Positions 27,001 through 30,000 of a stretch of DNA of 64,000 bases are shown one piece after another; position 1 is the first letter of the stretch; the number at the start of each line of letters is the position of its first letter. Origin of the DNA: Escherichia coli (lineage in GTDB: Bacteria > Pseudomonadota > Gammaproteobacteria > Enterobacterales > Enterobacteriaceae); the NCBI RefSeq assembly GCF_003790525.1, contig NZ_CP033636.1. The stretch is one strand, 5' to 3'. Made by a program: the position numbers.

Positions 27001-30000
27001 TGATGGTGGCGTAAGCCGTCTTCATGGATTTAAATCCCAGCGTGGCGTTGATTATCCGTTTCAGTTTGCCATGATCGCATTCAATCACGTTGTTCCGGTA
27101 CTTAATCTGTCGGTGTTCAACGTCAGACGGGCACCGGCCTTCGCGTTTGAGCAGAGCAAGCGCGCGACCATAGGCGGGCGCTTTATCCGTGTTGATGAAT
27201 CGTGGGATCTGCCACTTCTTCACGTTGTTGAGGATTTTACCCAGAAACCGGTATGCAGCTTTGCTGTTACGACGGGAGGAGAGATAAAAATCGACAGTGC
27301 GGCCCCGGCTGTCGACGGCCCGGTACAGATACGCCCAGCGGCCATTGACCTTCACGTAGGTTTCATCCATGTGCCACGGGCAAAGATCGGAAGGGTTACG
27401 CCAGTACCAGCGCAGCCGTTTTTCCATTTCAGGCGCATAACGCTGAACCCAGCGGTAAATCGTGGAGTGATCGACATTCACTCCGCGTTCAGCCAGCATC
27501 TCCTGCAGCTCACGGTAACTGATGCCGTATTTGCAGTACCAGCGTACGGCCCACAGAATGATGTCACGCTGAAAATGCCGGCCTTTGAATGGGTTCATGT
27601 GCAGCTCCATCAGCAAAAGGGGATGATAAGTTTATCACCACCGACTATTTGCAACAGTGCCCAATACGAATGGCGAAAAGCCGAGCTCATCGGTCAGCTT
27701 CTCAACCTTGGGGTTACCCCCGGCGGTGTGCTGCTGGTCCACAGCTCCTTCCGTAGCGTCCGGCCCCTCGAAGATGGGCCACTTGGACTGATCGAGGCCC
27801 TGCGTGCTGCGCTGGGTCCGGGAGGGACGCTCGTCATGCCCTCGTGGTCAGGTCTGGACGACGAGCCGTTCGATCCTGCCACGTCGCCCGTTACACCGGA
27901 CCTTGGAGTTGTCTCTGACACATTCTGGCGCCTGCCAAATGTAAAGCGCAGCGCCCATCCATTTGCCTTTGCGGCAGCGGGGCCACAGGCAGAGCAGATC
28001 ATCTCTGATCCATTGCCCCTGCCACCTCACTCGCCTGCAAGCCCGGTCGCCCGTGTCCATGAACTCGATGGGCAGGTACTTCTCCTCGGCGTGGGACACG
28101 ATGCCAACACGACGCTGCATCTTGCCGAGTTGATGGCAAAGGTTCCCTATGGGGTGCCGAGACACTGCACCATTCTTCAGGATGGCAAGTTGGTACGCGT
28201 CGATTATCTCGAGAATGACCACTGCTGTGAGCGCTTTGCCTTGGCGGACAGGTGGCTCAAGGAGAAGAGCCTTCAGAAGGAAGGTCCAGTCGGTCATGCC
28301 TTTGCTCGGTTGATCCGCTCCCGCGACATTGTGGCGACAGCCCTGGGTCAACTGGGCCGAGATCCGTTGATCTTCCTGCATCCGCCAGAGGCGGGATGCG
28401 AAGAATGCGATGCCGCTCGCCAGTCGATTGGCTGAGCTCATGAGCGGAGAACGAGATGACGTTGGAGGGGCAAGGTCGCGCTGATTGCTGGGGCAACACG
28501 TGGAGCGGATCGGGGATTGTCTTTCTTCAGCTCGCTGATGATATGCTGACGCTCAATGCCGTTTGGCCTCCGACTAACGAAAATCCCGCATTTGGACGGC
28601 TGATCCGATTGGCACGGCGGACGGCGAATGGCGGAGCAGACGCTCGTCCGGGGGCAATGAGATATGAAAAAGCCTGAACTCACCGCGACGTCTGTCGAGA
28701 AGTTTCTGATCGAAAAGTTCGACAGCGTCTCCGACCTGATGCAGCTCTCGGAGGGCGAAGAATCTCGTGCTTTCAGCTTCGATGTAGGAGGGCGTGGATA
28801 TGTCCTGCGGGTAAATAGCTGCGCCGATGGTTTCTACAAAGATCGTTATGTTTATCGGCACTTTGCATCGGCCGCGCTCCCGATTCCGGAAGTGCTTGAC
28901 ATTGGGGAATTCAGCGAGAGCCTGACCTATTGCATCTCCCGCCGTGCACAGGGTGTCACGTTGCAAGACCTGCCTGAAACCGAACTGCCCGCTGTTCTGC
29001 AGCCGGTCGCGGAGGCCATGGATGCGATCGCTGCGGCCGATCTTAGCCAGACGAGCGGGTTCGGCCCATTCGGACCGCAAGGAATCGGTCAATACACTAC
29101 ATGGCGTGATTTCATATGCGCGATTGCTGATCCCCATGTGTATCACTGGCAAACTGTGATGGACGACACCGTCAGTGCGTCCGTCGCGCAGGCTCTCGAT
29201 GAGCTGATGCTTTGGGCCGAGGACTGCCCCGAAGTCCGGCACCTCGTGCACGCGGATTTCGGCTCCAACAATGTCCTGACGGACAATGGCCGCATAACAG
29301 CGGTCATTGACTGGAGCGAGGCGATGTTCGGGGATTCCCAATACGAGGTCGCCAACATCTTCTTCTGGAGGCCGTGGTTGGCTTGTATGGAGCAGCAGAC
29401 GCGCTACTTCGAGCGGAGGCATCCGGAGCTTGCAGGATCGCCGCGGCTCCGGGCGTATATGCTCCGCATTGGTCTTGACCAACTCTATCAGAGCTTGGTT
29501 GACGGCAATTTCGATGATGCAGCTTGGGCGCAGGGTCGATGCGACGCAATCGTCCGATCCGGAGCCGGGACTGTCGGGCGTACACAAATCGCCCGCAGAA
29601 GCGCGGCCGTCTGGACCGATGGCTGTGTAGAAGTACTCGCCGATAGTGGAAACCGACGCCCCAGCACTCGTCCGAGGGCAAAGGAATAGAGTAGATGCCG
29701 ACCGAACAAGAGCTGATTTCGAGAACGCCTCAGCCAGCAACTCGCGCGAGCCTAGCAAGGCAAATGCGAGAGAACGGCCTTACGCTTGGTGGCACAGTTC
29801 TCGTCCACAGTTCGCTAAGCTCGCTCGGCTGGGTCGCGGGAGGGCCGGTCGCAGTGATTCAGGCCCTTCTGGATTGTGTTGGTCCCCAGGGCACGATTGT
29901 CATGCCCACGCACTCGGGTGATCTGACTGATCCCGCAGATTGGAGATCGCCGCCCGTGCCTGCCGATTGGGTGCAGATCTTGCGCAACGAGATGCCGGCA

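What the first reader, a model, noticed from the sequence alone, without database searches (positions are those of the whole stretch)
27598..27700. aac(3)-IV has lost its native start codon to IS26 and is open-reading-frame-fused into the IS
From memory, native aac(3)-IV starts about 10 codons upstream of QYEWRKAE. Here the IS26 terminal repeat ends at 27661 and the gene frame begins at 27662 with no in-frame ATG/GTG at the junction. The supplied ORF track shows the frame staying open for roughly 590 nt back into IS26 on the strand opposite to tnp. Expression must use an alternative start or an IS26-borne outward promoter/hybrid frame.
Basis: partly seen in the sequence, partly recalled or inferred. 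Interest (0 to 1): 0.45.

Follow-up and report, generated by a model that had tools for sequence, protein, structure and literature searches.

The report
IS26 deletion beheads apramycin-resistance gene
A 53-base deletion flush with the end of insertion sequence IS26 has removed the promoter element, ribosome-binding site and start codons of the apramycin/gentamicin resistance gene aac(3)-IVa, so resistance-gene callers still report an intact gene that is probably poorly expressed or silent.

Summary
IS26 ends at 27661. The aac(3)-IVa frame resumes at 27662 with codon 2 (CAA, Gln). No in-frame start codon lies at the junction.

Compared with the usual IS26-aac(3)-IVa arrangement, exactly 53 bp are missing: GTTGATCGTGCTATGATCGACTGATGTCATCAGCGGTGGAGTGCAATGTCGTG. 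This stretch held the -10 box of the IS26 hybrid promoter, the Shine-Dalgarno sequence, the ATG of the 267-aa form and the GTG of the 258-aa RefSeq form. An IncHI2 plasmid, pNDM33-1, is identical over 14,001 bases apart from these 53 bp. The allele is therefore a single-step IS26-adjacent deletion.

The remaining coding sequence is 100% intact. It is fused in frame to 13 codons read antisense from the IS26 left end, starting at ATG 27623 and giving a 270-aa protein. NCBI already names this exact protein AAC(3)-IVa.

The allele is rare: 2 of 651 aac(3)-IV plasmids in PLSDB and none of 5,426 complete E. coli genomes, plus a few draft assemblies.

No promoter can be recognised for the fused ORF, and its Shine-Dalgarno sequence abuts the ATG with no spacer. 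I judge it weakly expressed or silent (about 0.6). The rival, a still-functional chimera, stands at about 0.3. This is an ordinary kind of IS26 event; its main relevance is genotype-phenotype prediction for apramycin.

The parts
26582..26836 (-). Truncated mef(B) remnant at the other (right) end of IS26. It is the end of the sul3-associated integron region.
   Evidence: RGI annotation in the co-linear records L001 and L110, mapped through the alignment.
26842..27661 (-). IS26, 820 bp, a variant encoding Tnp26 G184N (IS26-v1/IS15DI-like). Its left end (IRL, the tnp promoter end) abuts aac(3)-IVa.
   Evidence: Inverted repeats located. The three SNPs against the reference IS26 lie at 27048, 27049 and 27203. 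The translation reads RIINATLGF.
26894..27598 (-). tnp26 coding sequence (234 aa plus stop), divergent from aac(3)-IVa.
27649..27654 (+). TTGCAA hexamer in the IS26 terminal repeat. In the canonical allele it is the -35 box of the hybrid promoter. Here it has no -10 partner.
   Evidence: One search finds TTGCAA-18-TATGAT with an upstream TG in canonical L003. One search finds no promoter-like site in window 26800-27800.
27661..27662 (.). Deletion junction. The 53 bp present in canonical copies are missing, flush with the last base of IS26.
   Evidence: Alignments A1 and A2. pNDM33-1 is identical over 7,662 + 6,339 flanking bases apart from the 53 bp.
27623..27661 (+). Thirteen IS26-derived codons ([13 protein letters not shown]) that begin the chimeric ORF. 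The ATG is preceded by AAAAGGGG.
   Evidence: The SD-like duplex scores -6.6 kcal/mol but has a 0-nt spacer.
27623..28435 (+). Chimeric 270-aa ORF, the IS26-AAC(3)-IVa fusion that gene callers annotate.
   Evidence: The exact protein is P0002 in NCBI, named AAC(3)-IVa. RGI calls it from this ATG in CP138816 and CP138824.
27662..28435 (+). aac(3)-IVa codons 2-258 plus stop, protein 100% identical to the crystallised enzyme.
   Evidence: PDB 6MN3 residues 3-260. NCBIfam NF033081 scores 483 bits against a cutoff of 420.
28664..29689 (+). aph(4)-Ia (hph, hygromycin B phosphotransferase), downstream in the same module.
   Evidence: NCBIfam NF000107 scores 827 bits. No + strand promoter-like site lies between 25577 and 28700.
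29695..30048 (+). 5' remnant of a second AAC(3)-family gene, cut off by the IS6-family element.
   Evidence: Annotated as a pseudogene in L003. Only partial NCBIfam matches.
30111..30863 (-). IS6-family transposase gene (WP_000602738.1) that closes the aac(3)-IV-hph module.
   Evidence: mapped through.

Best explanation
This is a 5'-decapitated allele of aac(3)-IVa, created by a single IS26-mediated adjacent deletion.

The normal module. IS26 sits 53 bp upstream of codon 2. Its terminal TTGCAA acts as the -35 box. The 53 bp supply the -10 box (TATGAT), the transcription start, the Shine-Dalgarno sequence and both possible start codons.

The event. The IS26 left end was joined directly to CAA (Gln2), removing all of those signals. 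This is most simply explained by intramolecular replicative transposition of IS26 into a target 53 bp away.

The consequence for the reading frame. IS26 ends on a codon boundary in this frame, and the antisense frame of tnp26 is free of stops. The intact coding sequence (residues 2-258) is therefore fused in frame to an ATG 13 codons inside IS26 (27623). That 270-aa ORF is what annotation software reports.

What is shown and what is inferred.
- Shown: the deletion, the loss of the signals, the in-frame ATG and the integrity of the enzyme part.
- Inferred: no recognisable promoter reads outward on this strand, and the SD-like AAGGGG abuts the ATG with no spacer. The allele is therefore expressed very weakly or not at all. 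On a low-copy IncHI2-type plasmid it most likely gives no resistance, or much reduced resistance, to apramycin and gentamicin. Hygromycin B resistance may fall too, if hph depends on the same promoter. Any active enzyme that is made must be the 270-aa chimera.
For: Structure of the event.
- The 53-bp gap is unambiguous and flush with the IS26 terminus.
- It does not fall at the available GTGC microhomology; this follows from direct reading of alignment A1.
- pNDM33-1 (NZ_CP076648) is identical over 14,001 bases, carries the same G184N IS26, and differs only by the 53 bp.
- The 8-bp flanks of this IS26 differ (CATAAATG and CAATACGA), so there is no target duplication.

Loss of signals.
- The canonical locus gives TTGCAA-18-TATGAT with an upstream TG.
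- The window gives no site of at least 9/12 matches in 26800-27800, and none on the + strand from 25577 to 28700.
- Inside IS26 only weak 7-8/12 matches occur.
- The SD-like duplex at ATG 27623 scores -6.6 kcal/mol with a 0-nt spacer. The canonical GTG has an 8-nt spacer.

Rarity.
- 651 PLSDB plasmids carry the gene's 5' end. Of these, 645 have the canonical upstream sequence and only 2 have this junction.
- None of 5,426 complete E. coli genomes has it, although 186 carry the gene next to IS26.

Literature.
- IS26 ends supply -35 boxes for hybrid promoters, and the tnp26 promoter lies in the first 82 bp of the left end (PMC7986276).
- MICs conferred by aac(3)-IV scale with promoter strength (PMC7504452).
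- Brau et al. 1984 proposed that IS140 (= IS26) is involved in expression of this gene. I confirmed the title from a reference list only.
Against: - The enzyme part is untouched: 100% identical to PDB 6MN3, with the catalytic TTLHLAE motif and His154 present.
- An in-frame ATG with an SD-like sequence does exist.
- A 9-residue N-terminal extension has no effect on resistance. Even a very weak promoter (0.009 relative promoter units, on a pBR322-origin plasmid) gives apramycin MICs of 128-256 mg/L (PMC7504452). Little expression is therefore needed.
- The allele has persisted without further mutation in at least six assemblies, in E. coli and K. pneumoniae, and in at least three downstream contexts.
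- No phenotype, transcript or protein data were available to me.
- The promoter scans are consensus matches only and did not even detect the real tnp26 promoter.
Confidence: 0.6

Rival explanations
1. Functional rescue by fusion. The 270-aa chimera is translated from the IS26-borne ATG 27623, on transcripts that start inside IS26 or read through it. Enough enzyme is made to keep clinically relevant apramycin/gentamicin resistance. The IS26 left end would then act as a portable start codon.
For: - The in-frame ATG has an AAGGGG SD-like sequence with a duplex energy (-6.6 kcal/mol) similar to that of the native GTG (-5.9).
- An N-terminal extension is tolerated, and very low expression is sufficient (PMC7504452).
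- The coding sequence is intact and scores above the AAC_3_IV equivalog cutoff.
- The allele occurs in two species and in several contexts.
- Weak promoter-like sites lie upstream at 27530-27559.
Against: - No promoter-like site reaches 9/12 matches.
- The SD-to-ATG spacer is 0 nt.
- The nearest co-directional genes are several kb upstream, beyond convergent genes.
- The plasmid backbone is of a low-copy type (IncHI2-like), unlike the pBR322-origin test system.
- The allele is very rare compared with the canonical one.
Confidence: 0.3
2. Internal re-initiation. Translation restarts within aac(3)-IVa at GTG 27728 (residue 24) or ATG 27836 (Met60, preceded by GGGAGGG at 9 nt), giving an N-terminally truncated enzyme.
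For: Met60 has the strongest SD-like context in the region, at -10.8 kcal/mol with a 9-nt spacer.
Against: - Such products lack 23 or 59 residues.
- The AAC_3_IV family profile aligns from residue 7 of the native protein onward.
- The crystallised, active form begins at residue 1.
- A transcript would still be required.
- Activity of a truncated form is unlikely; this is inference, not tested.
Confidence: 0.04
3. Assembly or sequencing artefact. The 53 bp are really present but were lost during assembly across the repeated IS26.
For: IS26 is present in six copies in the window. Repeats of this kind cause misassemblies.
Against: The identical junction occurs in two complete K. pneumoniae plasmids and in at least three independent draft assemblies whose contigs read across the junction. 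The missing bases lie outside the repeat.
Confidence: 0.02

Closest known systems
Canonical IS26 (IS140)-aac(3)-IVa-aph(4)-Ia module with an IS26 hybrid promoter (Brau, Pilz and Piepersberg 1984; e.g. pTB211, pNDM33-1)
   Same: Same IS26 left end and same orientation. Same enzyme sequence from residue 2. Same downstream hph, truncated aac(3) remnant and IS6-family element. pNDM33-1 is base-for-base identical over 14 kb.
   Different: The 53 bp between IS26 and codon 2 are missing, so the -10 box, SD, ATG and GTG are absent.
IS26-mediated adjacent deletions (intramolecular replicative transposition of IS6-family elements)
   Same: The deletion starts exactly at the IS terminus, the IS stays intact, there is no target-site duplication, and the left-hand neighbour is unchanged.
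   Different: The deletion is very short (53 bp). It happens to leave an in-frame fusion with an IS-internal ATG. Dependence on the transposase was not tested.
N-terminal length variants of AAC(3)-IV: 258 aa (WP_001199192.1) and 267 aa (WP_000093041.1) (Plattner et al. 2020, PMC7504452)
   Same: All share residues 2-258. A short extra N-terminal peptide is compatible with full activity.
   Different: Here the extra peptide is 13 residues of unrelated IS26 antisense sequence ([13 protein letters not shown]). The native translation and transcription signals are absent.
pCRE1_2 (NZ_CP074444) upstream variant of aac(3)-IVa
   Same: Another rearrangement in the same 53-bp leader next to the same mef(B)-remnant-IS26 context.
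   Different: It is a 10-bp slippage deletion between the GTGCAAT direct repeats. It keeps the promoter and a GTG start, and it is not flush with IS26.

Membership tests
AAC(3)-IV aminoglycoside N-acetyltransferase (NCBIfam NF033081; Pfam Antibiotic_NAT PF02522) | Whole-protein HMM score above the curated equivalog cutoff | tested here: met
   483.3 bits against a cutoff of 420; profile positions 2-252 of 252 are aligned. PF02522 is on record for the exact protein.
AAC(3)-IV aminoglycoside N-acetyltransferase (NCBIfam NF033081; Pfam Antibiotic_NAT PF02522) | Catalytic Tx(hydrophobic)H(hydrophobic)AE motif with His154 | tested here: met
   TTLHLAE is present. PDB 6MN5 is the H154A mutant of the same sequence. 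The motif is described in PMC8956665.
AAC(3)-IV aminoglycoside N-acetyltransferase (NCBIfam NF033081; Pfam Antibiotic_NAT PF02522) | Native initiation codon (GTG, or the upstream ATG) and its ribosome-binding site | tested here: not met
   Both start codons and the GGTGGAG SD lie in the deleted 53 bp.
AAC(3)-IV aminoglycoside N-acetyltransferase (NCBIfam NF033081; Pfam Antibiotic_NAT PF02522) | Confers resistance to apramycin, gentamicin and tobramycin | not testable with these tools
   No MIC data were found for any carrier of this junction.
IS26 (IS6 family) | 820-bp element with 14-bp terminal inverted repeats and a single 234-aa DDE transposase gene | tested here: met
   Element at 26842-27661 with inverted repeats GGCACTGTTGCAAA. 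Tnp26 carries G184N.
IS26 (IS6 family) | 8-bp target-site duplication flanking a simple insertion | tested here: not met
   The flanks are CATAAATG and CAATACGA. This is expected after deletion or cointegrate events and does not argue against IS26 identity.
IS26 hybrid promoter | A -35 hexamer in the terminal repeat with a -10 hexamer 16-18 bp away in the flanking DNA | tested here: not met
   TTGCAA is present, but no -10 box follows it in the window. The canonical allele has TTGCAA-18-TATGAT.
IS26-mediated adjacent deletion | Deletion end point exactly at the IS terminus, IS intact, other flank unchanged, and a progenitor arrangement exists | tested here: met
   Alignments A1 and A2. pNDM33-1 differs only by the 53 bp.
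IS26-mediated adjacent deletion | The event depends on Tnp26 activity | not testable with these tools
   Inference only. The adjacent IS encodes the G184N variant, reported as more active (Pong et al. 2019, as cited in PMC9019673).

The most novel reading that the evidence does not exclude
The left end of IS26 would act as a portable translation-initiation module. It carries an SD-like AAGGGG and an ATG at bases 37-39 from the terminus, and the reading phase ends exactly on the last base of the element. Genes decapitated by IS26-adjacent deletions could then be rescued as in-frame chimeras, driven by low-level antisense transcription within IS26. In this case aac(3)-IVa would stay resistance-proficient, because tiny amounts of the enzyme suffice.
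Probability: 0.3. Interest if true: 0.45.

Novelty: new member of a known kind. Interest (0 to 1): 0.27.

Why it matters
Apramycin is in clinical development, and aac(3)-IV is its main resistance gene in Enterobacterales. AMRFinderPlus and RGI both report this allele at 100% identity, and NCBI names the 270-aa chimera AAC(3)-IVa.

If the allele is silent, genotype-based prediction of apramycin or gentamicin resistance will give false positives for its carriers.

If it is active, an IS26 end can supply a start codon as well as a -35 box. That would be a modest extension of how IS26 activates neighbouring genes.

In both cases it is a clean, single-step example of IS26 remodelling a resistance-gene leader, and an isogenic progenitor plasmid (pNDM33-1) is available for direct comparison.

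Tried and rejected
- Protein search with the 40-aa IS26 antisense peptide, looking for other genes fused to [13 protein letters not shown]. It returned 1,434 hits. The 120 listed were all short partial 'hypothetical' ORFs at contig edges with no Pfam domain, so it says nothing about recurrent functional fusions.
- Literature searches for the accessions, the strains, the junction, or apramycin phenotypes of carriers found nothing relevant. One search was wasted on an ambiguous term.
- Exact-junction scans. The species-representative genomes gave 0 hits for both the deleted and the canonical junction, which is uninformative. The JGI metagenomes gave 0 deleted and 97 canonical hits. All 97 come from one project (JADMIO01), and 90 of them carry an altered C-terminus, so they look like a cloning-vector marker and cannot serve as a natural denominator.
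- Microhomology-mediated slippage as the cause was rejected. Recombination at the shared GTGC would give CAGTGCAATACG, not the observed CAGTGCCCAATACG (alignment A1).
- A new hybrid promoter at the new junction was rejected. No -10-like hexamer lies 15-19 bp from TTGCAA.
- A biological meaning for the long open frame in IS26 was rejected. It is a by-product of tnp26 codon usage.
- I did not run structure prediction. The published tolerance of a 9-residue leader bears more directly on the question.

Full report
**What is in the sequence.** IS26 lies at 26842-27661. It is 820 bp long, with 14-bp terminal repeats and tnp26 on the minus strand at 26894-27598. Its left end, the end that carries the tnp26 promoter (PMC7986276), abuts aac(3)-IVa. 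From 27662 the + strand reads CAA TAC GAA TGG..., that is QYEWRKAE, and continues to a stop at 28433-28435. No ATG, GTG or TTG lies in frame at the junction. The GTG inside the inverted repeat (27657) is in another frame. The frame is open back to a stop at 26975-26977, and the first start in the ORF list is ATG 27071.

**What has happened.** I aligned the window with a canonical copy (pTB211, locus L003). The window lacks exactly 53 bp between the last base of IS26 and CAA: GTTGATCGTGCTATGATCGACTGATGTCATCAGCGGTGGAGTGCAATGTCGTG. The placement of the gap is unambiguous. It does not coincide with the GTGC microhomology that slippage would have used.

The deleted stretch contains four signals:
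- the -10 box TATGAT, which pairs with the IS26 TTGCAA at an 18-nt spacing and has an upstream TG (found in the canonical locus, absent in the window);
- the GGTGGAG Shine-Dalgarno sequence;
- the ATG of the 267-aa ORF (MSSAVECNVV-QYEW, P0001);
- the GTG used by RefSeq (WP_001199192.1, 258 aa) and by the crystallised protein (PDB 6MN3).

The IncHI2A plasmid pNDM33-1 (NZ_CP076648, E. coli, duck, Foshan) matches window 20000-34000 with zero mismatches on both sides. It carries the same IS26 variant and differs only by these 53 bp. The allele is thus a one-step derivative of that arrangement. A deletion flush with an intact IS terminus, with the other IS flank unchanged and no target duplication, is the expected product of an IS26 adjacent deletion by intramolecular replicative transposition. 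That mechanism is inferred, not shown.

**What is left.** Everything from Gln2 to Gly258 is intact. It is identical to the crystallised enzyme, including the catalytic TTLHLAE motif with His154. The family model NF033081 scores 483 bits against a cutoff of 420.

In the aac frame the IS26 terminus falls on a codon boundary. The nearest in-frame start is ATG 27623, 13 codons upstream, which gives [17 protein letters not shown]... (270 aa). Further in-frame starts lie at 27599 (GTG) and 27575 (ATG). Downstream starts lie at 27728 (residue 24) and 27836 (Met60).

The long open frame inside IS26 has no special meaning. It is codon-aligned antisense to tnp26, and a stop would require a TTA, CTA or TCA codon in tnp26. 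The first such codon is codon 208.

**How common it is.**
- In PLSDB, 651 plasmids carry the 5' end of aac(3)-IV. Of these, 645 have the canonical upstream sequence. Only two carry this junction: K. pneumoniae NZ_CP138816 and NZ_CP138824, both from Jinhua, China.
- None of 5,426 complete E. coli genomes has it, although 186 carry the gene next to IS26.
- The exact 270-aa protein is nevertheless in NCBI under several accessions. One of its names is 'MULTISPECIES: aminoglycoside N-acetyltransferase AAC(3)-IVa', and it is on record for 8 contigs.
- Draft assemblies RDDW01000079.1, DBAQIT010000077.1 and ABZAXM010000060.1 read across the identical junction.
- RDDW01000079.1 is 100% identical to window 27569-34435.
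- The window backbone is IncHI2-like. The K. pneumoniae plasmids are IncFIB/IncHI1B hybrids and diverge downstream at 32481.

The allele is therefore real, rare, and has moved between replicons and species.

**Is it expressed?** This is the open question. Three points argue against expression.
- The hybrid promoter is destroyed. No consensus-like promoter of at least 9/12 matches lies on the + strand anywhere from 25577 to 28700. Only 7-8/12 matches occur inside IS26.
- The AAGGGG before ATG 27623 pairs with the anti-SD about as well as the native site does, but with a 0-nt spacer against 8 nt for the native GTG.
- The nearest co-directional genes are integron cassettes several kb upstream, beyond convergent genes.

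Plattner et al. 2020 (PMC7504452) supply two points in favour.
- AAC(3)-IV with or without its 9-residue leader gives the same MICs.
- The weakest test promoter (0.009 relative promoter units, pBR322-origin plasmid) still gives apramycin MICs of 128-256 mg/L, and MICs rise with promoter strength.

My estimate is rough. A spurious promoter, a poor ribosome-binding site and a low-copy plasmid together should put expression well below that weakest construct, and so bring the MIC near wild type. I therefore favour 'silent or strongly attenuated' at about 0.6, and 'functional chimera' at about 0.3. Internal re-initiation and assembly artefact are minor rivals. Nothing here measures expression.

**Comparison with what is known.** The involvement of IS26 (as IS140) in aac(3)-IV expression was proposed when the gene was first sequenced (Brau et al. 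1984, title confirmed). IS26 hybrid promoters and IS26-driven rearrangements are well established (PMC7986276). This allele is one more IS26-adjacent deletion. Its particular features are its small size, the loss of every expression signal while the whole enzyme is spared, and an accidental in-frame IS-borne ATG that leads annotation tools to report an intact gene. I found no paper that describes it.

**Verdict.** The kind of event is ordinary. Its practical relevance is moderate: genotype-phenotype prediction for apramycin, and a neat test case for whether an IS26 end can donate a start codon.

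Noticed in passing
window 26842-27661; SNPs at 27048, 27049 and 27203. Other copies at 14714-15533, 42977-43796 and 47631-48450.: The IS26 next to the deletion encodes Tnp26 G184N (IS26-v1/IS15DI-like), a variant reported as more active. Four of the six IS26 copies in the window differ from the reference IS26 by three mismatches, and the copies at 38121-38940 and 41721-42540 are reference IS26. I checked where the mismatches lie only for the copy at 26842-27661. The K. pneumoniae plasmids carry the same deletion junction with reference IS26, so the IS body was exchanged after the deletion, or the junction moved by recombination within IS26.
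   Followed up: partly
L109 (NZ_CP074444.1, K. pneumoniae pCRE1_2), locus 1200-1260: This is a second leader variant of aac(3)-IVa. A 10-bp deletion between the direct repeats GTGCAAT...GTGCAAT places the SD directly against the GTG. There is also a TGG-to-TTG (Trp5Leu) change. It sits in the same mef(B)-remnant-IS26 context.
   Followed up: partly
window 28436-28663, with the scan covering 24800-28700: No promoter-like site lies on the + strand between aac(3)-IVa and aph(4)-Ia (hph). hph may therefore normally be co-transcribed from the IS26 hybrid promoter and could be silenced by the same 53-bp deletion.
   Followed up: no
window 27816-27838: Met60 of aac(3)-IVa is preceded by a strong SD-like GGGAGGG at 9 nt (-10.8 kcal/mol), the best ribosome-binding context in the region. 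It is probably incidental.
   Followed up: partly
L012-L108 (metagenome project JADMIO01): All 97 metagenome contigs with the canonical junction come from one project. Ninety of them encode a C-terminal variant (...CDAARQWLSS instead of ...CDAARQSIG). They look like a cloning-vector apramycin marker in a clone library rather than natural carriage.
   Followed up: partly
L007 and L008 (both from GCA_050466505.1); L009-L011: One assembly holds two contigs with identical aac(3)-IV-hph content. One reads into IS26 across the deleted junction. The other starts at AATACG, 1 nt after the junction. Eleven contigs encode the partial protein P0006 (YEWRK...); the four I read start within 1-2 nt after the junction. 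Some isolates may hold two copies or two upstream contexts.
   Followed up: no
window 27575-27661 and every IS26 left end in public assemblies: At least 1,434 protein clusters in public databases contain the antisense IS26 peptide (...[30 protein letters not shown]). The 120 best-scoring ones, the only ones listed, are short partial 'hypothetical proteins' at contig ends, and a few are misnamed RepA or transposase. This is a systematic annotation artefact of the stop-free antisense frame.
   Followed up: partly
P0003 (UniProt P08988, from X01385): The original 1984 reference protein has a frameshifted C-terminus (...PPEGGMRRMRCRSPVDWLSS), as Plattner et al. 2020 already noted. The window has the corrected ...PPEAGCEECDAARQSIG.
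   Followed up: yes
window 29695-30048: The remnant of a second AAC(3)-family gene (best partial match AAC(3)-VIII-like) is cut off by the IS6-family element. It is a constant part of the aac(3)-IV-hph module and may hint at the module's origin.
   Followed up: no
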